The translations under genes were made by a program, and so were the position numbers. The notes beneath the pieces were generated by a model. It was given only the letters and a program-made list of their open reading frames with translations. It ran no database searches and was not told where the DNA came from. This document shows positions 27,438 through 64,000 of a stretch of 64,000 bases of DNA, in pieces. Every line of letters starts with the position of its first letter. Within the stretch, counting starts at the first letter, position 1. The stretch is from a virus. The stretch covers positions 80,819 through 144,818 of IMG/VR virus record IMGVR_UViG_3300045988_060821. One strand, written 5' to 3'.

Positions 27438-27917
27438 TTACCAAGCGCATTTATTCTTCTTGATATGATGAGTTCCAATGCATACAGCATCCGCAATATC
27501 CTAGATAACATGGATACCATAATTCTATTCTACATAGAGTTGAGCATTCTTTTTCTATTCTGCTCTTGTTCGACCTTTAATACCTAAAGTAGATTTCCAA
27601 GACGAGGCGAGGACTGTTGAATGAGGAATCTGGATTTCTTGCAGTAATTCTGAAACAACTCCATAAACCTCTGCCAAGACCTTAAAGGTCTAAACATTAT
27701 TAGCCACATTGTTCTGTTGCTAAATATCTTCAAAGATTACTTCGTCGATATTATAATCTGTAACTAAAGTCTAAATACCCTATCGTAACTAAACTAGTCT
27801 AATATCGGTATTTGGATCATCTAAAGAAATCTTGCCGTAGGACTTTAACTTTCCATCTTCAAAGATAGCCCATCCCGTAACCTTCGAGGCTTGGTCAAGG
27901 GCTAACAAGCGACTCAT
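27438..27917 (-). CDS. RuvC-like Holliday-junction resolvase (159 aa) with 7 recoded TAG codons.
   Basis: N-terminal MSRLLALDQASKVTGWAIFEDG... and C-terminal ...IADAVCIGTHH (RuvC motifs). It is invisible in the ORF track because of the TAG density. Its ATG overlaps the dUTPase stop (TAATG). Confidence 0.7.
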
Positions 27918-48451: not shown

Positions 48452-48763
48452 TCAGTTATCGTCTCCCACAGTATTTGTGTATCCTACAATGTTGAATTGA
48501 TTGAGCCAGCTATCTAGTTCATCAATAACAGCAATACATTTCATACCTCTAGCTTTTGTTAGAAAATATCCATAGCTAATAAATCCTAAATTTTGCGGTA
48601 GATTACGCTCTTTTGTTAACTCTAAGAACTTTTTAACCATCAGTTGAGGATGTTGAGTAACAAAGAGTACCATCTTATCAGGATACTTATGTGCTAAATC
48701 ATTTGCGTAGTACATTAAGCTAGTTGTCTTACCTGCACCACGACTTGCAATTACCTTAAACAT
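48452..48763 (-). CDS. Small P-loop NTPase/kinase-like protein (103 aa).
   Basis: Walker A SRGAGKTT. SD box GGAGG then ATG. TGA abuts the thyA-like ATG. Confidence 0.4.
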   Translation of the reverse strand: MFKVIASRGAGKTTSLMYYANDLAHKYPDKMVLFVTQHPQLMVKKFLELTKERNLPQNLGFISYGYFLTKARGMKCIAVIDELDSWLNQFNIVGYTNTVGDDN

Positions 48764-49680
48764 TATGAACCTCCACGAGTTCCATTCATACCTAGTTCTT
48801 TAGTCTTATAGAACTCAATCCAATAAGTCTCTCGTTCATTTAACTAATCTCTAGGCACTTCTTCCAAAATCTCAAATATAAAATTATATTGACCAGATTT
48901 TTGCATCGCCTAATATAACTTATTAGTCACAGGTCCGTATGCTAAAGAGGTTTTAATGTGCTGTCTAAAACGCTCTTTAATATCAACAGACTAACCAATA
49001 TAAGCCTAACCAGTTGTTAGATCGGTAATTTTATAGATACCGCATACTTTACCTTTATTAGTGGCAAATAGATGCGTCATAAGAATATCATATGCAGGAC
49101 GATAATAGGTCTCCCATATTACTTTATCAATGATTTCCTTTTTCACAAAGTGAATTTGCAAATCACGCAATAGAGTAATATCGTTCAAACTAAATTCATC
49201 AATAGCAAGACGATAATAGTCCTAATCTGCGGCAATTGCTTCTTGGCGTTGCTAAGCCTAGATATAAGATAACTATTTAGCTTCCAATTCATGGAGTTTA
49301 TCTTGCTAATGTGAGATTTGATTAGTTATCTATTGAAGTTCTGCTAAATGATATTTTTCTTTAGCTTGATATGTTTCATCAAGCTCTTTACTTTTCTTTT
49401 CAAATTGAGCCTTAGCGCTCTCTTCTGCTCGCTATTCAGCGCTTTCCCGCAACTTATTCGCAGTATCAGTCAAAGAATTGACAATTTCATTATGTGATAC
49501 AATATCTTCTTTTACTTTTGCTAATTCTCTCTATTTCAATGCAATATCTTGTTCAATGCGTTTATTCTCTTCTTGTCTTTCTTTATTTATCAATACTACC
49601 TAAAGCCGATTATTGCGAAGATATAAAACATATCCGATCAGCGCAAGAATAACCAAGCCTGATAATATATAATAAATCAT
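48763..49680 (-). CDS. Membrane-anchored coiled-coil protein with a C-terminal GIY-YIG nuclease domain (about 305 aa, 15 or more recoded TAG).
   Basis: The frame of ORF 49006-49188 extends both ways through TAGs. The N-terminus is a TM helix MIYYILSGLVILALIGYVLYL, then about 180 aa of Q/E/K/A-rich coiled-coil. The C-terminus reads KVCGIYKITDLTTG-Q-AYIG-Q-SVDIKERFRQHIK...YNFIFEILEEV...ERETYWIEFYKT...GMN (I-TevI-like catalytic core). TAA at 48763-48765. Confidence 0.6.
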
Positions 49681-54156: not shown

Positions 54157-56055
54157 TTACTCAAAATTGAAACCGAGTTCGTTAGCATTATCGTAGATAT
54201 ACTGCTTGCGCGGTTCAACTGCGCTGCCCATCAGAATATTGAGTAATTCTGTGGTTTTCTCTGCGTCAGAGATAGAAATACACTTATATCTCTCATTCAT
54301 AAAGCAGACCTTCTGCAAATCTTCAGGATTCAACTCGCCAAGGCCCTTAGCACGCAGTAAATCATACGAGCCGTTATGACTATTCTTCCACTCTGTTAAT
54401 TCATCTTCGGAGTAACAGTAATACTCTTTTCCTTTTTGACGAATAATATACAATGGAGTTACAGCCCTGTATAGCTTACCAGCTTCCACGAGAGGCCGCA
54501 TATAGGTATAGAAGAAAGTGATAAGCAGAAGTTCAATGTCTGCGCCATCACTATCTGCATCAGAAGTAATGACAATCTTGTCAAAATTCATCTTGTTGAC
54601 ATCAAAAGAAGAATCAAATCCAGCGCCAATTACACGCACAATATCTGACATCTCTTGATTCGCAAGAATCTTGTCTACCGCAGTTTTCAGCGGAGAGACA
54701 ATCTTTCCGCGCAACATATAGATGCAGTCAGTCTTGGGGTTGCGGGCCTCCACCGCAGATGCGCCTGCGGACAAGCCCTCTACGAGAAGCAGGTTACGAT
54801 TTTTAGGATTTTTATTTGTGCAATCAATAAATTTGTTACTGATTTGCATTTTTGCCTTAAGACCAGTTTCCTTTTTCGCTTTTACACCACGGGCTGCATC
54901 TCTTGCCTTACGAGCAGCTTCTCTAGCCTTACGAGCATTAAGTGCCTTATCCGCGATTCCCTTAATATCTTTCTCATTAGCGGCAAACCAATATTGAAGC
55001 TCCTCTGCGATCGTCGCAGTAAAAGGCTTCATATCGAGTTTAACAACTCTACTCTTGGTCTGAGCGTCATATGCAACGCCGGGAGCGGTTACATTAAAGG
55101 CAATATACATACCTTCTTGACAATCTTCACCAGTAAGATTTTCGTCCTTATCTTTTAGCCACCCTTTTTCACGAAAGAATTTATTCATCTCTCTCGTGAG
55201 GATGGTTTTAATCTGCGTAATATGCGGACCTGAATCTGTAAGACCAGTATTTACATAAGGAACAATGGTCGCAGAATAAGCATTTGTATAGGTCAGAACT
55301 AAATCCAGCTTGTTCTTGCCATCAGAAAAATTGAAGTTTAAGCGATTCTTCAAGATTTCCTTACCCTTAACTGCTTCATCTACTAAGTCCATAAGACCAT
55401 TCTTCGAAGCGAAGATAATCTGCGGCTGGCCCTCTCTATTCAACTCGATAGTCAGACCGGGGCACAGGCACGCAATTACCTTAAAAAGATTGGTAATGAC
55501 AGGTATATCTACCTCTGGATGCGTGAAGAACTCTTCATTAGGTTGCCACTGAACCAGAGTACCAGAGGGACTATTCTTGTTATCCCATGCGCCAGTATCT
55601 CGTTTATCAAAGACACCTTCCTTAAACCAGATATGCTCATACTTACCATCTCGATGAGTAATTACCTCAAGCCAATGAGACAGATAAGTGGTCAGCTTAC
55701 TACCAATACCATTCAAACCAAGAGCAGTACCTTCATAAACGCCATCGTCAGAATACTTACCAGAAGTGTTTAGCACGCTAAAAGACGCTTCAAGTACAGT
55801 CTTACCATCATCACGCATGGCATTAGGAATAAATCCCTGACCGTTATCTTCTACGATAATAGTATTATCCTTTTTAATAGTAACAATAATCTTATTACCG
55901 TGACCCGCCTTAAATTCATCGACTGCGTTAGAGACAATCTCAATCAATAGCTGAGTAGAATACTCAGTGCTGCCGACGTAAACGCCCGGCCGCAGTCTTG
56001 TAAACTCTAATGGAGAAAGTGACTCGATTGATTTCTCGTCATATAGTTTTCCCAT
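54157..56055 (-). CDS. Type IIA topoisomerase B-subunit (GyrB-like; T4 gp39-like ATPase plus TOPRIM) (632 aa).
   Basis: GHKL ATPase motifs (EIVSNAVDE, DNGQGF, GLNGIGSK) and TOPRIM (LLVEGLSAG...DADSDG). Confidence 0.9.
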   Translation of the reverse strand: MGKLYDEKSIESLSPLEFTRLRPGVYVGSTEYSTQLLIEIVSNAVDEFKAGHGNKIIVTIKKDNTIIVEDNGQGFIPNAMRDDGKTVLEASFSVLNTSGKYSDDGVYEGTALGLNGIGSKLTTYLSHWLEVITHRDGKYEHIWFKEGVFDKRDTGAWDNKNSPSGTLVQWQPNEEFFTHPEVDIPVITNLFKVIACLCPGLTIELNREGQPQIIFASKNGLMDLVDEAVKGKEILKNRLNFNFSDGKNKLDLVLTYTNAYSATIVPYVNTGLTDSGPHITQIKTILTREMNKFFREKGWLKDKDENLTGEDCQEGMYIAFNVTAPGVAYDAQTKSRVVKLDMKPFTATIAEELQYWFAANEKDIKGIADKALNARKAREAARKARDAARGVKAKKETGLKAKMQISNKFIDCTNKNPKNRNLLLVEGLSAGASAVEARNPKTDCIYMLRGKIVSPLKTAVDKILANQEMSDIVRVIGAGFDSSFDVNKMNFDKIVITSDADSDGADIELLLITFFYTYMRPLVEAGKLYRAVTPLYIIRQKGKEYYCYSEDELTEWKNSHNGSYDLLRAKGLGELNPEDLQKVCFMNERYKCISISDAEKTTELLNILMGSAVEPRKQYIYDNANELGFNFE

Positions 56056-56057
56056 AT

Positions 56058-56561
56058 TTAACCTCCATACATATCTAATACTTGCTGTTCTGTAATCTTG
56101 CCTGTTGCTAACTGATCAGCAAGCTCATTAAACAGCGTTCCATTATGCCCTTTTACATATCTTAAATCAACCTGTAATCCTTCTTTAGTGGTTAATCTAT
56201 CATATTCGAGAATTAAGTCCTTATTCTCTAAGGGTTTATTACCGGCACGAACCCAGCCATTTGCCTTCCAATTCTTAATCCAATTAGTGAAGCTATTTAC
56301 GCAATACATAGAATCACTATAAACAATAGGAATGAAGAAGTCACCGTCTTTCGCGCCATAATGGGTTAATGCCCACAAGATTGCGGACATTTCCATTCTA
56401 TTGTTTGTGGTGCCATCTGCGCGTTCAGAATACGCCGCGACAACTTTATAGGTTGACGGGTCTTGGTGTGGTTCAGCTTCACAAACTACAACTCCAAAAC
56501 CACCTTTTGCGTCTTTCGCGCCATTTTTTAAGGTTGAGCCGTCTGTATATATCACTATCAT
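56058..56561 (-). CDS. rnhA: RNase H (type 1).
   Basis: IVIYTDGS...NNRMEM...SDSMYC...KGH motifs. Confidence 0.85.
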   Translation of the reverse strand: MIVIYTDGSTLKNGAKDAKGGFGVVVCEAEPHQDPSTYKVVAAYSERADGTTNNRMEMSAILWALTHYGAKDGDFFIPIVYSDSMYCVNSFTNWIKNWKANGWVRAGNKPLENKDLILEYDRLTTKEGLQVDLRYVKGHNGTLFNELADQLATGKITEQQVLDMYGG

Positions 56562-56663
56562 TCGCTATACCTCAAATACTTCATTTATTTTTAAGTTCTC
56601 CTTTTTTATTTCTGAATATATAATACCATATATTTTATGAAAAATCAAGCTTAAAATAAGAAA

Positions 56664-56700
56664 AAGGCTTAGTAGACTATTAAGTCTACTAAGCCTTTAA
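56664..56700 (-). terminator. Rho-independent terminator for the minus-strand lysis transcript (AAGGCTTAGTAGACT-ATTAA-GTCTACTAAGCCTT, T-run on the minus strand).
   Basis: 14-bp inverted repeat just downstream of the holin-like gene. Confidence 0.75.
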
Positions 56701-56702
56701 TA

Positions 56703-57026
56703 TTAAATGGTTGCTTCATCCTCGACTACTTGCTGCTATTGTTTCTCACACATAGCTAAATCATAAGTAATCCCACCCTTGCGGTGATCGGATTTACTCA
56801 TGTTTAAGTAAAAAGAGCAAACAATACCATGCGCAGACCATGGCAATCCTACTAATGCACTAATCCATGGGAGAGTACCCAGATAACCAAGATGTACGCA
56901 ATAGAAAGCAAGAGCAATACCGGAGATAGTTACAATCCACAAGAGAGAGCGAATGTCGCAAATAAGCTATTTAGAAAATTCTTTTTTCTAGCTATGTTTT
57001 CCTTTTCCTCTTGTTTGACGACCCAT
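56703..57026 (-). CDS. Holin-like small membrane protein (about 107 aa, 2 TM, charged termini). Its ATG overlaps the endolysin TAA (TAATG); 3 recoded TAG.
   Basis: ORF 56736-56942 extends upstream through TAGs to an ATG at 57026 and downstream through TAG 56736 to TAA 56703. Two hydrophobic helices, located immediately after the endolysin. Confidence 0.45.
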
Positions 57027-58432
57027 TATTGACCACTCTTTTCAGCATAACGCTTTAGAACAGCCGCAAATTCGCCACGAGTCATAAAGCGTTTTGGCAT
57101 CAACTGACCTTTTTCATTGCCATTGATTAAGCCATTAGCCTGTGCCCAAGTCATTGCGTCTTGCTCCCAGGTGACTGGTTGCGCAGCGAGCTGACTAAGA
57201 TATACATTCATCATTTCATTGAATTTTTCTTGAGTCATGTCTTCATCATCCTCCTCGATAACTTTAGACTGCATTAAAGCAGCAACATCTTTGCGAACGG
57301 TTGTCATATCTTTGCCATATTTCTTGAACCAATGGTATACATCAGCATGGTTACTACCGAGGCCCAACTGATAGCTATCTTGATGGCAGAGAATGGTTGG
57401 AACTGTTACGCCATTTACATTTACAGAACCATTTGGATTGATATTATATGTCTTACATAAGTAGGCTGTCAATTCGCAAGCCTCTTTGTAGACTTTAGCG
57501 AAGTAATCGGGGTCACTTAGATTGTCTTCGCAGATTTCAAACTGAATCCATCCAGTATTACAGCTACCTTTAGAGCCTGAGCCGCAACCCCAAGGTCTAT
57601 AATTCCAAGGTAGTGTTTGTACTGCGGCTACGCTTCCGTCAGCAAGAGCACCAATCCAAGCGTTTACACCAGCCTGCTATGAGCTATGATTCCAATCGGT
57701 TCTACTGGTATTTTTACCAATTTTAGTAATCAGAGATTGATAGTTCTTGTCGTTCTCAGACGGTTGAACATAACGCTTAATAGTTTTATTATTGGCGCCT
57801 GTACTGTGCCAGAGGACGCCTTTAATATCCATCTTGCGGGTTTGCTTATAACAAGTGCTATTAGTCATCATGCAAACCAATGGGTGATTAGCGTTTGAAT
57901 ATTTCATCTTAGCTATTTCCTCCTTTTGCGTTGAATAAATATTGAAGTAACGTTGGCTATATAACGCACGCTATTTTAGTGTGCTAGAGCTCTGATCTGC
58001 CGGTCTTTCAAACTGAGTGACCACCAAATTAGATGCTTCTTCAACAGATGAGGTAGTCTTCAAGATTTTTAATAGCTAGGAGTAACTTGTAGTTAGTTCC
58101 TGATATAAAAAATCTAGTTGGGTGTTTAAGTCACCAATAGACTTTCCTCGACTTTTACACAGCTAAAACAGACCTTGCTTGCGGCTCCAATATGTCCATT
58201 GAGCTAAACCATATCCCGCAGAATCATGCGTGAAATTGGTATAGGAGCCGTTATCAACAGCCGCAGTATACGAGGCATCGTTCATTCCTAACTTACTCTC
58301 ATATGAGTTCTATAAGTTAGTTGGAATAAGTCCGCTTTCCGCGAATAGATTCCCCATTAGACCTGCGGCACCGCAGTTACTTAATCCTTTTGATTTGAGA
58401 TAATCCCAAATAACTTGAGCATTATCCGCCAA
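57026..58432 (-). CDS. Three-domain endolysin: N-terminal lysozyme-like (phage tail lysozyme family) domain, central Amidase_2 (N-acetylmuramoyl-L-alanine amidase) and C-terminal SLH cell-wall-binding domain. About 468 aa with about 6 recoded TAG.
   Basis: One frame runs from TTG 58432 (SD box GGAGGTGAGG) through pieces 57677-57907 and 57026-57472. N-terminal domain motifs AGLMGNLFAESG...GYGLAQWT...FERP. Amidase_2 motifs LWHSTGANN...NAWIGALADGSV...GWIQFEICE...ILCHQD. SLH domain W..DAMTWAQANGLINGNEKGQLMPKRFMTRGEFAAVLKRY. Confidence 0.8.
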
Positions 58433-58454
58433 TGACCTCACCTCCAATTAGGAT

Positions 58455-58490
58455 ATAAAAATAGGTCGAGGGATTTCTCCCTCGACCTCA
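58455..58490 (-). terminator. Stem-loop terminator (GGTCGAGGGA-TTTC-TCCCTCGACC) between the phoH-like and endolysin genes.
   Basis: 10-bp perfect inverted repeat. Confidence 0.65.
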
Positions 58491-58493
58491 TTA

Positions 58494-59867
58494 TTAAATT
58501 TTATCAGCGATAGAAGCAATCTTACTACGATAGATATTCTTAAGAGTTACCTCTCCATAAATATCCTTACCTCTGAATACTTTTGATACTCTCCGCATAC
58601 CATTGTTTGCACCAGAGAAGTGAATATCATCAACCTGAGTTTTTTCATCACCATCAATAATGCAAATACAATCTTCGCCAACACGCTGTAGAGCGAGTTT
58701 CATTAGTGTGCGGTCAAGGTTCTAAGCTTCAGAAATATAGATACCTGCGTTCATACCAGAAGTATCATAACCACGAATATCAGAGAATGGTAGTAAAACT
58801 AATTTACCTTCTGCGATCAGTCTCTCAACTTCCTCTCGACCACCAAACTTACTACTTAGCAAGTTACCAATCTGAGAGTCAAGTAGCTTTTCATCTTTTG
58901 TCCCAGGATAGTATCCGAGACGAGCAGAGTTAGCAGTAGCAACAGTATTGCAGAAGATAATAATTTTATCTAGTTCATGGGCTTCCATTTTTGCCATTAA
59001 ATAAGCCAAAGAAACGAAAGTCTTTCCGCTACCAGCTGGACCTTTAACAAGAGTTAGTTTGTTATTACGCAAACTATCAAATAGCATCTTCTGATAAATA
59101 TCTCCAGAATATGGAGAAATCTTACCAAACCACTTAGAGTTAATAGTCTTAGAAGAAAGGTATCTGAACTCTTCGCCTGTCCAAACCCGCAAATCGACAA
59201 TCTCTCCATTGCTATTTTTCAGGATAAGATACTGTCCTGGTAATAGGTTAAAGGAATTATCGTTCGGGTTCTGATAAAACTCTGCTAGAGCTTCGTCGCT
59301 ATAAGTAACTTCAATATAACCAGTATAATCGTCTACTTCTTCTGGAACGCTCTCAATCATTCCATTACCAAAGAAGCAGTTAGCGATATGCTTTAGACTT
59401 AAATCGTTAGTTACAAAGACAATATCTTTTTCTTTGTCGCACGCAATGGCATCAGACAAGATGCGAGTATCATCAGTAACATCGAAACCAGCTTCTTTAA
59501 TTACGAACTCATTGTCTACTTTGTGCGGGATTACTTCATACTTATCTGGATATTCTTCAAATAAATGAAGCAATAGACGAGCCGAATACTTGATGTCAGC
59601 ATCCTTGTTTGAAGCTGTCTTAATTCTCTCTAATTCTTTTAATGTAATTGAGGAAACTAAGAAGGGCTTCTTGTCCTGCTCAAATAGACTTTCTCCGGCT
59701 AACAAAAGGGAGCAAGTATCGTAGAAGTATCTATCTGTTGGAAACCGTACATCATAGTTCATGTTCATCTTCCTCTTCGTATGTAGTGGCAAATCCGATT
59801 GCCCTAGATTGAGTTTCTCCTTCACTAAGTTTATTAATCGCAACATTGTGACGAACAATCCTTTCAT
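58494..59867 (-). CDS. phoH: PIN-domain plus PhoH-like P-loop ATPase (about 457 aa; recoded TAG at 58722-58724).
   Basis: GPAGSGKTF Walker A and LGYYPG PhoH motif. The C-terminal piece 58494-58703 (..IIDGDEKTQVDD..) is in frame via TAG. N-terminal PIN-like region. Confidence 0.8.
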
Positions 59868-60021
59868 TTATATTAGCTTTAATAAGTTCTGTAATAGCAC
59901 TTATAATTTCACTAATACTATTGAGTGTAAGGTGGCACCTACTGTGATAAGGAGAACTCCAATTAAAATATTTACCAATAAAACCACCTCTTATGTTATT
60001 ATAATAAATAAGAGAAGTTCG

Positions 60022-60486
60022 TTAATTATTATCGGCCTTCTGTCTAAAGCGTTTGACAGATTCAATAGCTTTATCTTGACCAAGAATATATTTATGTAAC
60101 ATATTTTTCTCTTTATCAAGAGCCTCTTTAAGTGCGTCGGCTCTATATTTGCAGCGCATCATATTTCGATTAAAAGCGCCTAATGGGTCCACTTCCGCAG
60201 GAGTTTTAACGCCAAGACCTAATACCTCTTGATAAAACTGATTGCGGACATTAAACTTATCTCTCTCTTGCTTATAAAAATATTCAAGGGCTTCAATTCT
60301 TGCTTTTGATAGAGCAATATTATATCCAACTTTTTTAGAGTAGAAACCTTCATCACCCTTACTTAGTACAGCAGCGCCATGAAAAGTATGCCCTTGATAG
60401 CAAATCTTTACATTGGTGATACCTTCTTCTTCCCAATAATCTTTCATAATCACAGGAGCTTTATATATAGCTTTAACCAAATTCAT
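60022..60486 (-). CDS. Hypothetical protein (154 aa).
   Basis: Intact ORF only. Confidence 0.3.
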   Translation of the reverse strand: MNLVKAIYKAPVIMKDYWEEEGITNVKICYQGHTFHGAAVLSKGDEGFYSKKVGYNIALSKARIEALEYFYKQERDKFNVRNQFYQEVLGLGVKTPAEVDPLGAFNRNMMRCKYRADALKEALDKEKNMLHKYILGQDKAIESVKRFRQKADNN

Positions 60487-60666
60487 ATAGTTTTGTTCTC
60501 CTTATTTAATTCTTTATCTATATGATAGCAAAATTTTATAGATAAATCAAATTTGCCCTATTTCTCCGAAAAATTTGCTGGGCCTATGTGCGCGGAAACT
60601 CGGAGATCGACGATGCTAGCGACAAAAAAAAAAGAACCGCGCTCTTACGAACGCGGTTCTTCAAAA

Positions 60667-62163
60667 TTACTCCTTATTGGAGGAGTCTGCCAACTTGCCA
60701 CCGAGGAAACCGGTGAGCAAGGTTTTCACATCAATACCGAGGGATTCGCTCAGTCCCTCAGAAACCTGAGCGACATTCTTGATAATGTTGCCAGACAGCT
60801 TGCTGGTGTCATCACCGAACATCACAATCTTGTCAACATTGGTGTACGCCTGACCGGTAGCCTGAGCAATAGCAGGCAACTGCTGGAAGTACAGCTTGAG
60901 GGCTTCCATCTGCATATCCATCTTGGCGGCTTCGCCGTACTGCTTCATAGCTTCTGCTTTCTTCATAAGACCTTCGGCTTCTGCCTCAGCCTTAGCCTGA
61001 ATCGCGGCAGCCTCAGCTTCACCACGAGCCTTAGTAGCCGCAGCTTCTGCCTCACCCTGAACACGAACAGCTTCAGCCGTAGCACGCTGGGCTTCAGCTC
61101 TTTGCTCTGCCTCAAAGCGCTCGGCTTCCGCAGTCTTCTGACGCTCATACAGGTCTGCCTCAGACTGCTTCTGAGTAGCGTACAGCTTAGCATCAGCTTC
61201 CTGCTGAGCAGCATACTTCTTAGCTTCCGCGGTCTTCTTGACCTCAGCCTCCAGAGCACGCTCCTTAATGGCAACTTCGCGCTCCTTCAAGTCGATTTCC
61301 TTTTCCTGACGAGCAATGTCAGCATCTGCCGCAGCCACATCACGCAGTTTACGCTGGTTCTCAGACTCAATCTCCATAGCAGCATTAGCCTGAGCCTGCT
61401 TGGTATCAGCTTCCTGCTTCAACTGAGCCTTCTGAATAGCCAGACTATTGTTGCGCTTGGCAATCTCTTCCTCAGCCTTTACGCGGGCATCATTAGAAGC
61501 CTTAGCGTTCTCAGCCTCGGCAACCGCAATCTCACGCTGGGCATTAGACTTAGCGATTGCGGCGTCCTTACGGATCTGCTCGACGTTATCAATACCAAGG
61601 TTGGTGATAACATCATTGTCGTCAGAGAAGTTCTGGACATTGAAGGAAACCAGTTCCAGACCGAAACGAGCCAGATCAGGCACAGCATTTTCCTGCACCT
61701 TTTCGGAGAATGCCTTGCGATCACCGACCATCTCGGTCAGCTTCATCTGACCCACAATCTCACGAATATTACCTTCCAGAAGGTCGTTAATCTTCTGTGC
61801 GATCTGATCGCGAGAGACATTTAGGAAGTTCTGAGCAGCAAGAGCAATCATCTCTTCGCTCTGACCCACGCGTACAGAAACGGTAGAATCGACTCGTACA
61901 TTGATGTATTCAGCAGTCGGCACGGCAGAGCCAGTCTTAACATCAATCTGAATGGCTCCTAGTGCCAGCTTATCCAGTCGCTCCAAGAAGGGAATCTTGA
62001 TGCCAGCCTTACCGACCAAAATACGAGGTTTCTTGTGCAGACCAGAAATGATATAGGCAACATCAGGTGGAGCCTTTACATAACCAGAAGCCAAGAGGGC
62101 GATAAGAGCAATAGCAATAATCACCGCAGGAACAAAAGGAAGAATAGTCATCAAAATTTCCAT
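60667..62163 (-). CDS. Flotillin-like SPFH/band-7 protein (498 aa; FloT/YuaG-like). No TAG, with a GC-rich coiled-coil.
   Basis: N-terminal TM anchor, SPFH domain, then a long Ala/Glu-rich (EA-repeat) coiled-coil typical of bacterial flotillins. SD box TTAAGGAG then ATG. Confidence 0.75.
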   Translation of the reverse strand: MEILMTILPFVPAVIIAIALIALLASGYVKAPPDVAYIISGLHKKPRILVGKAGIKIPFLERLDKLALGAIQIDVKTGSAVPTAEYINVRVDSTVSVRVGQSEEMIALAAQNFLNVSRDQIAQKINDLLEGNIREIVGQMKLTEMVGDRKAFSEKVQENAVPDLARFGLELVSFNVQNFSDDNDVITNLGIDNVEQIRKDAAIAKSNAQREIAVAEAENAKASNDARVKAEEEIAKRNNSLAIQKAQLKQEADTKQAQANAAMEIESENQRKLRDVAAADADIARQEKEIDLKEREVAIKERALEAEVKKTAEAKKYAAQQEADAKLYATQKQSEADLYERQKTAEAERFEAEQRAEAQRATAEAVRVQGEAEAAATKARGEAEAAAIQAKAEAEAEGLMKKAEAMKQYGEAAKMDMQMEALKLYFQQLPAIAQATGQAYTNVDKIVMFGDDTSKLSGNIIKNVAQVSEGLSESLGIDVKTLLTGFLGGKLADSSNKE

Positions 62164-62346
62164 GTGTTACTCCTTAATATATTAAATTGTTTTATTTATA
62201 AATCAATGCGTTAGCATTGTTTATCCGTAGTAGCCTCCATCGGGAGGATCTCGCTTATAAGATTTACAAAACCCAGGGATACAGCCACAATTAGGATAGG
62301 TATATATACATTTATTACATCTTATGATAGGGCTTGACTCTTCAAT

Positions 62347-62907
62347 CTACAGCTGCGCCTTACACTCCTCAACCTTCTCATTCATTTCCTTGATAACATC
62401 ATCAAGGAGAACAGGATAACACTCATGAGAGTCAACTCCTACATGGTACATAAATGGAATTTCATTGTAGAAGTTGGAGGTCTGATGGGTATGACCGAAA
62501 AGATTGCAAGTTACTTGCTTGAGGGACTCTTTCTCAAGGTTGCCGGTCAAAGTAGGATAATGAGAAGCATAGAAATGATACTTGCGGTAAGTGAAAGCAT
62601 AAGCGTCAAACACAGGAATACCAGTTCTAAGATAGGCTTCTCTACGATTAGGGGTATCATGGTTACCACCAACCACGAGTTTAAGACCATTCATGCGATT
62701 GAGTAAGGCAAGCCCCTCCTCAAGCTTATCAGCTCCGCCAAGCATGAGATCGCCGCAGATAATAAGTGTATCTTCAGGGGCCACACACTCATTATTCTTC
62801 TTTACGATAGTTTCATTCATCTCTTCAACGCTTTCAAAACCACGGGCTTTCCAGATGAACTCCTTATCGTGATTATAATGGTAATCTGATGATAGCCAAA
62901 TTTTCAA
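62347..62907 (-). CDS. Calcineurin-like metallophosphoesterase.
   Basis: Motifs D.H...GDL.D...GNHD. Confidence 0.7.
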   Translation of the reverse strand: MKIWLSSDYHYNHDKEFIWKARGFESVEEMNETIVKKNNECVAPEDTLIICGDLMLGGADKLEEGLALLNRMNGLKLVVGGNHDTPNRREAYLRTGIPVFDAYAFTYRKYHFYASHYPTLTGNLEKESLKQVTCNLFGHTHQTSNFYNEIPFMYHVGVDSHECYPVLLDDVIKEMNEKVEECKAQL

Positions 62908-62913
62908 TATAAG

Positions 62914-63618
62914 TCACTTCCTTTTAGGTGTTGTAATGGCTTCAATTCTCGACATTCCATTTTTCATACGCTTGTATACTGAATTTTTTGAAATATTATA
63001 AATGGAACACCAATCTTTGAAATTGTGAAATTCTCCATTGATTTCAATTAACTTGCTGGCTTCTTCTATGGGGATGTTATTTGGAATGATTTCCAGTGTT
63101 TCTGGATTATATTCCCTAAATATAAATCCCTTTACTGTTTTATATCTGTTACTACCGGATGCGCATTTTCTAATACTAGCTCTATCAGTTCCTAACTCAT
63201 GAGCTGCGGCAGTTATTGTAGGAAAAAATTTCTTTTCTCCACTTGTTTCTGAAATGGCACAAATGGGTGTTGCCAATTTAGCTCGTACTTCTGGATCATC
63301 AAACGGATATTCTGTGTTTAGAGTTTGATTATATCCATGCTAAGAGGTTAAGCTATTATATTCAATAATTGCATCATGCTCTAATTTATATCTTTCTTCT
63401 GGAGTTTGAATATCTTTTATTAAGATTTGAAAATCAAAATTCTCTATACCATATTTTCTTATGGCTCGATATAATGGATATTCATATCCTGCGCGAGATT
63501 CGAGACGAGCATTTTGCTAATGTTCATACCACCTTGTTGTAAATCCTCGTGACTAGTCACTGGAACCAATATAGGTTTTATGGTTAATCAGATTTTCGAT
63601 TTTATAAATGAAATACAT
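62914..63618 (-). CDS. Free-standing GIY-YIG homing endonuclease with C-terminal NUMOD/IENR-type HTH DNA-binding domains (about 234 aa, 3 recoded TAG).
   Basis: SD box GGAAGGTGATAAA then ATG at 63618. N-terminus MYFIYKIENLINHKTYIGSSD-Q-SRGFTTRWYEH...E..YN..L..GYN. C-terminal piece 62914-63276 carries KKFFPTITAAAHELG...VKGFIFREY HTH modules. TGA stop. Confidence 0.75.
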
Positions 63619-63707
63619 TTTATCACCTTCCATTTATAAATGGAAATTCTTACAGACTCTTTTATTACTTCTGACCTCATCTTTGATAGTCATTGAAAAA
63701 CTTATTC

Positions 63708-64000
63708 TTAATGATGCACACGCACCTCGATATTAGAAAAACCCCAATTAGTCTTAGGGAACTCTTTTTCAGTAGGAATAGAAAATCCCTTCTTCATCTT
63801 CTTAATTGCGGAATCGGGGATTCTGGCAACGCCAGTCCGCTGAGCATTACGCTCAAGAGCGGTTTCGACAGGGACATCAATGACTTCAAAGGTCAGTTTG
63901 GTATGCGGATCTGCGATCAACCGACCAAGGAGCTTTGCGCGAGAAGCGGGGCTAATATGAGTCGCATCCGCAAACACAACATCAATACCAAGTTCCATAG
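63708..64000 (-). CDS. C-terminal part of a P-loop kinase-like (polynucleotide-kinase or AAA_33-like) protein. The N-terminus lies outside the window.
   Basis: ...VVFADATHISPASRAKLL...TFEVIDVPVETALERNAQR pattern. The ORF runs off the window edge. Confidence 0.35.
   Translation of the reverse strand, partial: MELGIDVVFADATHISPASRAKLLGRLIADPHTKLTFEVIDVPVETALERNAQRTGVARIPDSAIKKMKKGFSIPTEKEFPKTNWGFSNIEVRVHH

What the first reader, a model, noticed from the sequence alone, without database searches (positions are those of the whole stretch)
57026..58432. Three-domain endolysin (lysozyme-like + Amidase_2 + SLH) points to an S-layer-bearing Gram-positive host
The endolysin frame joins three ORF-track fragments through TAGs. 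Its C-terminus is a clear SLH domain (W..DAMTWAQANGLINGNEKGQLMPKRFMTRGEFAAVLKRY). SLH domains bind pyruvylated secondary cell-wall polymers of Bacillus, Paenibacillus, Clostridium or Thermoanaerobacter-type Firmicutes. Combined with the ubiquitous AGGAGG SD boxes and the low GC, this argues against a Bacteroidota host, despite the crAss/Lak-like recoding. A TAATG-coupled 2-TM holin-like gene and a strong terminator complete a lysis cassette that sits inside the replication block on the minus strand.
Basis: partly seen in the sequence, partly recalled or inferred. Interest (0 to 1): 0.55.

Follow-up and report, generated by a model that had tools for sequence, protein, structure and literature searches.

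The report
Amber-gated three-domain endolysin, Oscillospiraceae phage
This is the cell-bursting gene pair of a common, uncultured gut phage that reads the TAG stop codon as glutamine. Its wall-binding tail and its membrane partner both point to Clostridia of the Oscillospiraceae group as host, which makes it a sound but largely expected finding.

Summary
Window 57026-58432 (-) is one 468-codon frame with five in-frame TAGs. It scores above Pfam thresholds for Phage_lysozyme2, Amidase_2 and a single C-terminal SLH repeat. A TAATG-coupled 107-aa membrane protein and a strong terminator follow it, all inside a TAG-free replication block.

TAG means Gln. It swaps with CAA/CAG among relatives, and one TAG sits on an invariant Gln. 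A 96.5%-identical contig carries a tRNA(CUA) about 33 kb upstream.

The host call is right at phylum level (Bacillota, not Bacteroidota) but can be sharpened. Homologues of the wall-binding tail and of the holin-like protein occur together in standard-code prophages of Oscillospiraceae-type and Acutalibacter isolates. An S-layer is not shown.

- A conserved internal SD+ATG lies between the two catalytic domains. This suggests a second, shorter isoform.
- Conserved terminators flank the cassette on both sides.
- Only one SLH repeat is present. The one characterised SLH endolysin, LysBT1, can form trimers, and its single SLH is predicted to mediate this.

TAG-recoded phages of Firmicutes and preferentially recoded lysis genes are already published. 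I rate this a new member of a known kind, of moderate interest.

The parts
58463..58488 (-). Intrinsic terminator directly after the PhoH stop codon and about 20 nt before the endolysin SD
   Evidence: The scan finds an 11-bp stem with 7 GC pairs and a T-run. The fold is -27.2 kcal/mol, z=-5.0. A hairpin plus T-run sits at the same place in three divergent relatives, each with a different stem sequence.
58441..58445 (-). Shine-Dalgarno GGAGG, 8 nt upstream of the TTG start
   Evidence: Seen directly in the sequence. Relatives L007 and L009 have ATG at the equivalent codon behind the same GGAGGT motif.
57026..58432 (-). Endolysin CDS of 468 aa with a TTG start, five in-frame TAG (Gln) codons and a TAA stop
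   Evidence: TAG codons are at 58310-58312, 58163-58165, 58076-58078, 57971-57973 and 57677-57679.
57935..58426 (-). Phage_lysozyme2 domain (residues 3-166); catalytic Glu32 in the motif FAES
   Evidence: Pfam E=1.2e-31. A profile of the clade hits the phi29 gp13 lysozyme domain 3csr, and Glu32 aligns with gp13 Glu45, which I recall as the catalytic residue.
57919..57925 (-). Internal Shine-Dalgarno AAGGAGG, 11 nt before the in-frame ATG of Met176
   Evidence: An SD-like core is kept upstream of this ATG in all four phage lineages, although the linker residues differ (KEEIAK, GGISG, EGGNR). It is also kept in the fused prophage genes.
57905..57907 (-). In-frame ATG (Met176, 'MKYS...'), the putative internal start for a 293-aa Amidase_2-SLH isoform
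   Evidence: The same Met is the real start of the stand-alone amidase-CBD genes in Colidextribacter loci L045, L046 and L052 and in MAG L053; in Acutalibacter L031 the equivalent start codon is GTG. Translation from it is inferred, not shown.
57380..57835 (-). Amidase_2 domain (residues 200-351)
   Evidence: Pfam E=2.4e-12. The clade profile hits PlyL 1yb0 and PlyG 2l47, and the FEICE Glu aligns with their vEIC Glu.
57065..57178 (-). Single SLH repeat (residues 419-456) with W422, G434LING438 and T451RGE454. It is preceded by an acidic linker and a helix (about residues 386-418).
   Evidence: Pfam 29.9 bits against a gathering score of 20.8. The clade profile's best PDB hit is B. anthracis Sap SLH1, 3pyw, E=0.0019. 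T, R and E of the TRxE motif are invariant in 16 relatives.
56703..57026 (-). Holin-like membrane protein of 107 aa with three TAG codons (residues 13, 20, 97). Its ATG overlaps the endolysin TAA (TAATG).
   Evidence: Hydropathy shows one strong hydrophobic helix (about residues 25-47) and a weaker second one (about 50-74), with a basic N-terminus. It has no Pfam, PHROG or NCBIfam hit. Homologues of 41-77% identity lie right after the endolysin in the divergent phage relatives and in at least 11 Clostridia loci.
56663..56698 (-). Intrinsic terminator closing the cassette
   Evidence: 16-bp stem, -24.6 kcal/mol, z=-7.2. It is conserved in position in three relatives.
56620..56648 (-). Sigma-70-like promoter (TTGATT-17-TATTAT with an extended TG) for the next unit (RNase H, gyrase)
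   Evidence: Found by the scan. The CTTGAT...TATTATATA string is also present downstream of the terminator in relatives L007 and L009; the extracts for L001 and L010 end before the second hexamer.

Best explanation
This is the lysis cassette of a roughly 140-150 kb virulent-type phage. The phage decodes TAG as glutamine, and its host is most likely a Clostridium of the Oscillospiraceae/Acutalibacteraceae group (Oscillospirales in GTDB terms, from memory).

The first gene is one polypeptide with three parts:
- a phi29-gp13-type lysozyme domain, which cuts the glycan;
- an Amidase_2 domain, which cuts the MurNAc-L-Ala bond;
- a single SLH-type repeat, which acts as the wall-binding module.

The second gene is translationally coupled to the first. 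It encodes a small membrane protein that most likely acts as the holin, because the endolysin has no signal or SAR sequence.

The cassette sits among TAG-free early replication genes. However, it carries 8 TAG codons, and an intrinsic terminator immediately precedes it. No complete product can therefore be made until the phage tRNA(CUA) is active, and probably not until transcription reads through that terminator.

Shown here: the domain content, the reading of TAG as Gln, the suppressor tRNA in the same phage species, the conserved layout, and the distribution of homologues.

Inferred: the holin function, the timing role of the TAGs and terminator, a second 293-aa amidase-SLH isoform made from the conserved internal SD+ATG, and oligomerisation through the single SLH repeat.
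For: Domains.

Single functional ORF:
- Standard-code prophage homologues are uninterrupted across all the TAG positions.
- dN/dS is 0.03.

TAG = Gln:
- TAG41 lies on the invariant Q of the NLQN motif.
- 12 of 19 TAG columns show CAA/CAG in other lineages.
- 15 of 19 TAG-to-sense swaps among relatives of at least 80% nucleotide identity are CAA/CAG. None are Ser or Leu codons.

Suppressor tRNA:
- A tRNA(CUA) is found in L174, L176, L177, L172 and L179, and Rfam confirms it as a tRNA in L174.
- One of those contigs also holds L095, which is 96.5% identical to window 56026-64000.

TAG enrichment: the cassette has 8 TAG against 29 CAA/CAG. The rest of the minus-strand block has 7 against 298 (Fisher p=3e-5).

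Layout: synteny and both terminators are conserved in four lineages.

Host:
- The genome scan found full-length or amidase+CBD homologues in Oscillospiraceae isolates (L013, L014), Flintibacter muris, Colidextribacter and Acutalibacter. Lachnospiraceae hits stop before the CBD.
- The CBD profile matches the prophage CBD profile with hhalign probability 98.8%.
- Holin-like homologues of 58-66% identity follow those prophage endolysins.
- L014 is an integrated prophage next to a split comM gene.
- SD usage and polymerase affinity also fit a Firmicute.

Precedents:
- Recoded lysis genes, and a TAG-recoded Oscillospiraceae prophage: bioRxiv 10.1101/2021.08.26.457843.
- LysBT1, an endolysin with a single SLH, which can form trimers: PMC12285257.
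- Type I internal start sites in endolysins: PMC12203907.
Against: - There is no direct host link. No CRISPR spacer match was sought, and the phage was not found integrated in a bacterial genome.
- The best full-length genome hit (L012) is probably a phage contig binned into a MAG.
- Several of the named isolate homologues come from mouse collections, so the actual host species is open.
- The prophage CBDs themselves do not score as SLH. Relatives of the window clade are at or below the Pfam threshold (20.5 and 16.4 bits).
- The fold search of the modelled C-terminus gave nothing significant.
- The second hydrophobic helix of the holin-like protein is weak, and no holin family model matches it.
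- The suppressor tRNA has a long variable arm, which is unusual for tRNA-Gln. The amino acid assignment therefore rests on substitution patterns, not on tRNA identity.
- The internal SD could be a leftover from a gene fusion.
Confidence: 0.78

Rival explanations
1. The host is one of the classical SLH/S-layer Firmicutes the first reader named (Bacillus, Paenibacillus, Clostridium sensu stricto, Thermoanaerobacter).
For: SLH domains and pyruvylated wall polymers are best studied in those genera. The clade profile's best solved-structure hit is B. anthracis Sap. The polymerase is about 39% identical to those of SPbeta phages.
Against: None of the 80 best genomic loci belongs to those genera. The CBD and holin-like homologues are in Oscillospiraceae-type and Acutalibacter genomes. 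The phage-database hits of the endolysin that have named hosts are mostly Evtepia, Faecalibacterium, Acutalibacter, Blautia and Oscillospiraceae phages. The phage encodes an anaerobic ribonucleotide reductase.
Confidence: 0.04
2. The host is a diderm Firmicute (Negativicutes), where single SLH domains tether the outer membrane to peptidoglycan. The SLH tail would target that periplasmic ligand.
For: Single-copy SLH domains that trimerise are typical of OmpM/SlpA-type outer-membrane tethers (background cited in PMC12285257). A weak PDB hit to a 96-aa SLH protein, 8bz2, was seen.
Against: No Negativicutes genome is among the 80 loci. No spanin-like gene is in the cassette. The holin-like and CBD homologues are in genomes named Oscillospiraceae, Acutalibacter and related Clostridia, which I take to be monoderm from general knowledge.
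Confidence: 0.04
3. The C-terminal repeat is not a wall-polymer anchor. It serves mainly as an oligomerisation or stability module, or binds a ligand other than pyruvylated SCWP.
For: Only one repeat is present. The homologous prophage modules have drifted below SLH detection and carry TREQ instead of TRAE. For LysBT1 the authors themselves doubted that SCWP is the ligand and reported effects on stability and oligomerisation.
Against: W, GxxxG and the T, R and E of TRxE are invariant across 16 relatives. In LysBT1 the SLH domain mediates cell-surface binding. The module sits where endolysin CBDs sit, and it is swapped between different catalytic domains (Amidase_2 or CHAP in L067).
Confidence: 0.12
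4. The internal SD+ATG is only a relic of a fusion between a lysozyme gene and a stand-alone amidase-CBD gene. A single full-length protein is made.
For: Stand-alone amidase-CBD genes start at exactly this Met (GTG in L031). The two modules occur separately in other phages. The spacer is 11 nt in the window, which is long for an SD.
Against: The SD-like core persists in every fused gene examined, across lineages whose synonymous sites are saturated (dS>2) and whose linker amino acids differ. This indicates selection at the nucleotide level. Type I internal starts are documented in two-domain endolysins.
Confidence: 0.35
5. The region is a decayed pseudogene, or several short genes, in a standard-code genome.
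For: In table 11 the frame is cut into six pieces.
Against: All interruptions are TAG. The Pfam domains span them. dN/dS is 0.03. TAG positions move between lineages while the frame is kept. A TAG-sense ORF map covers 94% of the window. A tRNA(CUA) exists in the genome.
Confidence: 0.01

Closest known systems
LysBT1, prophage endolysin of Brevibacillus thermoruber (PMC12285257)
   Same: Both have an N-acetylmuramoyl-L-alanine amidase followed by one C-terminal SLH repeat carrying the Trp, GIIxG and TRAE-type motifs. In LysBT1 the SLH domain mediates cell-surface binding, the enzyme can form trimers, and the SLH is predicted to mediate that trimerisation.
   Different: The window protein has an extra N-terminal lysozyme domain and an internal SD+ATG. 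Its motif reads TRGE. It comes from an uncultured TAG-recoded phage. No biochemistry exists for it.
Ply2638A and other Type I internal-start endolysins (PMC12203907; survey PMC9430671)
   Same: Two catalytic domains plus a CBD, with an in-frame start preceded by an SD between the two catalytic domains. This predicts a full-length form plus an amidase-CBD isoform.
   Different: Different domains (M23 + Amidase_2 + SH3b against lysozyme2 + Amidase_2 + SLH). The isoform is shown experimentally there and only inferred here.
Recoded lysis cassettes of alternatively coded gut phages (Borges et al., bioRxiv 10.1101/2021.08.26.457843)
   Same: Early replication genes are in standard code. Structural, lysis and homing-endonuclease genes carry in-frame recoded stops, and the phage has its own suppressor tRNA. 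Firmicutes hosts are included.
   Different: The size and lineage differ from the small TAG clades (Garnet, Amethyst, Topaz). Here the cassette is a two-gene island bracketed by terminators inside the early block.
phAss-1 / 'Caudoviricetes code 15 clade' (OQ749652, PMC10607447)
   Same: A ~136 kb human-gut phage with TAG recoding and a large tRNA set. Its 88-nt tRNA-Sup-CTA matches the window phage's suppressor at 73 of 91 positions. Many core proteins are 23-42% identical. A lysozyme-like gene lies next to PhoH.
   Different: It is a different genus or family level lineage, with no nucleotide similarity. Its amidase is a separate 254-aa gene elsewhere, and no SLH tail was detected.
Endolysin/holin-like pairs of Oscillospiraceae and Acutalibacter prophages (L013, L014, L031, L052, L067)
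   Same: The same lysozyme2 and/or Amidase_2 domains, a homologous C-terminal module, and the same holin-like protein downstream.
   Different: They use the standard code (0 TAG). Their C-terminal modules no longer score as SLH. Some carry an extra inserted segment or a CHAP domain instead of the amidase.

Membership tests
SLH domain (Pfam PF00395) | Profile score at or above the curated gathering threshold | tested here: met
   29.9 bits against 20.8, residues 419-456. Relatives score 20.5 and 16.4 bits.
SLH domain (Pfam PF00395) | Conserved Trp, GIIxG-type turn and TRAE motif | tested here: met
   W422, G434LING438 and T451RGE454 are present. T, R and E are invariant in 16 relatives. The region aligns to Sap SLH1 in 3pyw.
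SLH domain (Pfam PF00395) | Three tandem repeats forming the three-prong spindle (S-layer protein type) | tested here: not met
   Only one repeat is found. A homotrimer, as predicted for LysBT1, would be needed, and this could not be tested.
SLH domain (Pfam PF00395) | SLH fold of the modelled domain | tested here: inconclusive
   The C-terminal model has pLDDT 73 with a helix, hairpin, helix layout. Foldseek against the PDB gave no significant match.
SLH domain (Pfam PF00395) | Binding to pyruvylated secondary cell-wall polymer; host encodes CsaB and SLH proteins | not testable with these tools
   No whole host genomes or binding assays were available.
Amidase_2 (PF01510, PlyL/T7 lysozyme type) | Profile score above threshold and conserved catalytic core | tested here: met
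   47.7 bits against 26. The FEICE Glu aligns with the vEIC Glu of PlyL 1yb0. WHSTG His and CH(Q/A)D His are invariant. The third Zn ligand was not assigned.
Phage_lysozyme2 (PF18013, phi29 gp13 N-domain type) | Profile score above threshold and catalytic Glu | tested here: met
   110 bits against 28.2. Glu32 aligns with gp13 Glu45 in 3csr.
Holin | Small protein with transmembrane helices and a charged C-terminus, encoded next to the endolysin | tested here: met
   107 aa with a strong hydrophobic helix at about 25-47 and a weaker one at about 50-74. Adjacency is conserved in the phage relatives and in at least 11 Clostridia loci.
Holin | Match to a described holin family | tested here: not met
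   No hit in Pfam, PHROGs or NCBIfam. All 188 database relatives are unnamed or 'hypothetical'.
Holin | Membrane hole formation that releases the endolysin | not testable with these tools
   Needs expression or complementation experiments.
Type I internal-start endolysin | In-frame start codon with SD between two catalytic domains, conserved among relatives | tested here: met
Type I internal-start endolysin | Short isoform actually produced | not testable with these tools
   Needs protein analysis.
Genetic code 15 phage (TAG = Gln) | In-frame TAG in conserved genes, interchanging with Gln codons | tested here: met
Genetic code 15 phage (TAG = Gln) | Phage-encoded tRNA with anticodon CUA | tested here: met
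   Not in the window. It is present in contigs of the same species, for example L177 on the contig that also gives L095.
Genetic code 15 phage (TAG = Gln) | Gln shown at TAG by proteomics | not testable with these tools
   The long variable arm of the suppressor leaves its charging identity formally open.

The most novel reading that the evidence does not exclude
The endolysin may work as a mixed oligomer. Full-length chains and shorter amidase-SLH chains from the internal start would assemble through their single SLH repeats into the three-prong unit that binds the wall polymer.

The cassette may also be held by a double lock inside the early gene block: read-through of an upstream terminator plus amber suppression. 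The accumulation of tRNA(CUA) would then act as the lysis clock.
Probability: 0.2. Interest if true: 0.55.

Novelty: new member of a known kind. Interest (0 to 1): 0.38.

Why it matters
This phage is frequent in public metagenomes. The endolysin alone has more than 100 near-identical protein clusters, some seen on up to 100 contigs. It has no cultured relative and no assigned host.

The wall-binding tail and the holin-like partner give a concrete and testable host hypothesis: Oscillospiraceae-type Clostridia. This group is important in the gut but has few known phages.

The wall-binding module could be used as a fluorescent probe for these hard-to-grow bacteria.

The locus is also a compact example of a lysis cassette with recoded stops placed among early genes. 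It could be used to test the published idea that stop-codon recoding times lysis.

Tried and rejected
- DNA search of the phage collection with 4 kb around the cassette found only two short weak hits, so no close GenBank phage exists there.
- ARAGORN on the window and on the first 14 neighbouring loci found no tRNA. The suppressor appeared only after three walking steps.
- The cluster look-up gave no names or accessions.
- The homology search with the 82-aa C-terminus returned only five fragments.
- The full-length AlphaFold model was poor (pLDDT 58.6) and was not used.
- The C-terminal model (pLDDT 73) gave no significant Foldseek match in the PDB. I treat this as uninformative for a lone SLH repeat.
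- NCBIfam gave nothing for either protein.
- The prophage CBD profile did not hit SLH structures. Its link to SLH rests only on homology to the window clade.
- I considered that the 91-nt class-II-like tRNA(CUA) might insert Ser, Leu or Tyr. I rejected this because TAG swaps almost only with CAA/CAG and never with Ser or Leu codons.
- A perfect sigma-70 consensus inside the amidase domain (57443-57472) was judged probably coincidental. It lies in coding sequence, and some relatives have EIT or QIT where the window has ELT.
Full report
**What is there.** On the minus strand, the frame from 58432 down to 57026 is open except for five TAG codons, and it ends in TAA. The TAGs are at residues 41, 90, 119, 154 and 252. 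The standard code therefore cuts the frame into six pieces of 40, 48, 28, 34, 97 and 216 residues, not three.

With TAG read as Gln the product is 468 aa. Pfam places three domains above their gathering scores:
- Phage_lysozyme2 at residues 3-166 (110 bits).
- Amidase_2 at residues 200-351 (47.7 bits).
- One SLH repeat at residues 419-456 (29.9 bits against 20.8).

PHROGs labels both halves as endolysin. A profile of the clade finds the phi29 gp13 lysozyme domain, with Glu32 aligned to gp13 Glu45 (the catalytic residue, as I recall). It also finds the PlyL/PlyG amidases, with the FEICE glutamate aligned.

The start is the TTG at 58432, 8 nt behind GGAGG. Two relatives have ATG at the equivalent codon. 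Database gene calls of 443 aa start at Met26 and would truncate the lysozyme domain.

**The C-terminal repeat.** The sequence TWEQDAMTWAQANGLINGNEKGQLMPKRFMTRGEFAAVLKRY carries the SLH Trp, a GIIxG-type turn and a TRAE-type motif (TRGE). A profile built from nine members of the clade has B. anthracis Sap SLH1 (3pyw) as its best solved-structure match, E=0.0019. T, R and E of the motif are invariant in 16 relatives of 64-97% identity.

First, there is only one repeat. Second, relatives of the same phage clade score at or under the Pfam threshold (20.5 and 16.4 bits). An AlphaFold model of the last 88 residues is of moderate confidence and shows helix, hairpin, helix. It found no significant PDB neighbour, which I regard as uninformative.

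**TAG is a sense codon, and it means Gln.**
- A TAG-sense ORF map covers 94% of the window.
- The plus-strand genes at 2.5-15 kb, which resemble phAss-1 proteins only weakly and which I take to be tail genes, use TAG for 21-50% of their Gln-equivalent codons. The minus-strand replication block uses almost none.
- In the endolysin, TAG41 falls on the invariant Q of NLQN in standard-code homologues.
- 12 of 19 TAG columns hold CAA/CAG in other lineages.
- Among relatives of at least 80% nucleotide identity, 15 of 19 TAG-to-sense swaps are CAA/CAG and none are Ser or Leu codons.
- dN/dS against a relative whose endolysin is 97-98% identical in protein is 0.03 for the endolysin and 0.10 for the downstream gene.

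The window has no tRNA. Walking upstream through contigs of the same phage revealed an array of 26-36 tRNAs, plus a tmRNA in three of the five loci. The array includes a 91-nt tRNA with anticodon CUA. It lies about 33 kb upstream of the endolysin on the same strand. The contig IMGVR_UViG_3300045591_000029 carries it (L177). The same contig is 96.5% identical to window 56026-64000 (L095).

This tRNA has a long variable arm, which is unusual for tRNA-Gln. It also has U1 and G73, and it matches the 88-nt tRNA-Sup-CTA of phage phAss-1 at 73 of 91 positions. Its charging identity is therefore inferred from the substitution pattern.

**The cassette.** The endolysin TAA overlaps the ATG of a 107-aa ORF (TAATG, 57024-57028). 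That ORF has three TAGs, a basic N-terminus, one strong hydrophobic helix and a second weaker one. It matches no Pfam, PHROG or NCBIfam family. Its 188 database relatives are all unnamed or 'hypothetical'. However, it lies directly after the endolysin in the phage relatives and in at least 11 further Clostridia loci. This is the basis for calling it holin-like.

A 16-bp-stem terminator closes the unit at 56663-56698. A sigma-70-type promoter follows for RNase H and gyrase.

It lies between the PhoH stop and the endolysin SD, and no consensus promoter was found between it and the start. Both terminators are conserved in position in four lineages. The upstream one has a different stem sequence in each lineage.

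The cassette carries 8 TAG against 29 CAA/CAG, whereas the rest of the block carries 7 against 298 (p=3e-5). The order PhoH, endolysin, small membrane protein, RNase H, GyrB, GyrA, ligase is kept in relatives whose endolysins are down to 64% identical. Distant phAss-1 also has a lysozyme-like gene beside PhoH.

**An internal start.** An in-frame ATG (Met176, 57905-57907) lies between the two catalytic domains, preceded by AAGGAGG. An SD-like core is retained 7-12 nt upstream of this Met in all phage lineages, although the linker residues differ (KEEIAK, GGISG, EGGNR). It is also retained in the fused prophage genes. The same Met (GTG in L031) is the true start of stand-alone amidase-CBD genes in Colidextribacter and Acutalibacter.

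This matches the published 'Type I internal translational start site' class, of which Ply2638A is the model (PMC12203907). A 293-aa amidase-SLH isoform is thus plausible but unproven. A fusion relic is the alternative.

**Host.**
- SD cores precede 32 of 62 genes against a 3.8% background.
- The polymerase is closest to those of Enterococcus EF1-type and Bacillus SPbeta phages.
- The endolysin halves resemble those of Faecalibacterium, Acutalibacter, Evtepia and Oscillospiraceae phages.
- The genome scan is the most informative. Homologues that extend through the C-terminal module are in Oscillospiraceae isolates (L013 65%, L014 57%), a strain labelled Clostridiaceae bacterium (L015, 64%), Flintibacter muris, Colidextribacter, Pseudoflavonifractor and Acutalibacter. 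Nearly all Lachnospiraceae and Butyrivibrio hits end before the C-terminal module; the only Lachnospiraceae-type exception is a 34%-identity match in a Dorea MAG (L057).
- These genes have no TAG.
- L014 is an integrated prophage next to a split comM.
- The C-terminal modules are homologous to the window's (hhalign 98.8%), although they no longer score as SLH.
- The holin-like protein is 58-66% identical to the ORFs that follow those endolysins.

No Bacillus, Paenibacillus, Thermoanaerobacter or Negativicutes genome appears. I conclude that a Firmicute host is well supported and that an Oscillospiraceae-type host is the best current inference. An S-layer is neither shown nor required.

**Comparison with what is known.**
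- TAG-recoded phages of Firmicutes, preferential recoding of lysis genes and of homing endonucleases, and a TAG-recoded Oscillospiraceae prophage are published.
- phAss-1 and its relatives are a described code-15 group with a predicted Clostridia host. The window phage is a distant relative, with core proteins 23-42% identical.
- An endolysin with a single SLH repeat was first characterised in 2025. LysBT1 can form trimers, its SLH is predicted to mediate this, and the SLH mediates cell-surface binding.

The present protein adds a new domain combination and a new host group, but not a new principle.

**Verdict.** It is a new member of a known kind, of moderate interest.

Noticed in passing
window 48763-49680 (-): A 305-aa GIY-YIG homing-endonuclease gene carries 13 TAG codons in the middle of otherwise TAG-free replication genes. 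This echoes the recoded intron endonuclease reported by Borges et al. A second GIY-YIG/NUMOD gene at 62914-63633 has 3 TAGs.
   Followed up: partly
window 58494-59867 (-): The PIN/PhoH gene upstream of the cassette has one TAG at codon 382. The standard code would cut off its last 75 residues, and database gene calls give only 422 aa.
   Followed up: no
L174 3170-19440 (same phage species, about 20-35 kb upstream of the endolysin): An array of about 33 tRNAs on one strand. It includes a 345-nt tmRNA with tag peptide DNNYFDSHMAA (Rfam 100.5 bits). It also includes tRNAs that ARAGORN reads with four-base anticodons (taaa in L176 and other loci, tgtt in L174), and an 87-nt class-II-like tRNA with anticodon GCA.
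   Followed up: partly
L174 5805-5895; L177 5709-5799: The amber suppressor tRNA(CUA) has a long variable arm, a U1-U72 mismatch and G73. [quoted passage not shown] Why a class-II-shaped tRNA should be charged with Gln is unexplained.
   Followed up: partly
L146 409-1161 (+): Inside the tRNA region is a 250-aa gene with one TAG. It encodes a NAGPA phosphodiester glycosidase domain fused to a SPOR domain (Pfam 7e-18 and 4e-16). This may be a second wall-directed enzyme that acts on phosphodiester-linked wall polymers.
   Followed up: partly
L001-L003, 1-8000 (upstream of PhoH): A cluster of tRNA/RNA-repair-type genes: a Thg1-like gene, an RNA ligase, an AAA_33/KTI12 kinase-like gene and metallophosphatases, plus a Band_7 protein. 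It lies between the tRNA array and the lysis cassette.
   Followed up: no
window 57443-57472 (-): A perfect TTGACA-18-TATAAT match lies inside the amidase coding region. Some relatives have EIT or QIT where the window has ELT, so it is probably not conserved, although the DNA of the relatives was not checked.
   Followed up: no
window 27438-27917 (-): A 159-aa ORF has 8 TAG codons, the highest TAG density in the window. It is 33% identical to a phAss-1 region. Its function was not checked.
   Followed up: no
L006 12634-13353; L010 10087-10806: Some strains carry an extra 239-aa GIY-YIG gene inserted between gyrB and gyrA, which the window lacks. This looks like a mobile endonuclease polymorphism.
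   Followed up: no
L014 738-4990: The Oscillospiraceae prophage with the homologous endolysin also encodes a reverse transcriptase, a DUF4376 protein and an integrase-family protein just upstream. It abuts a truncated comM (Mg-chelatase-like) gene.
   Followed up: partly
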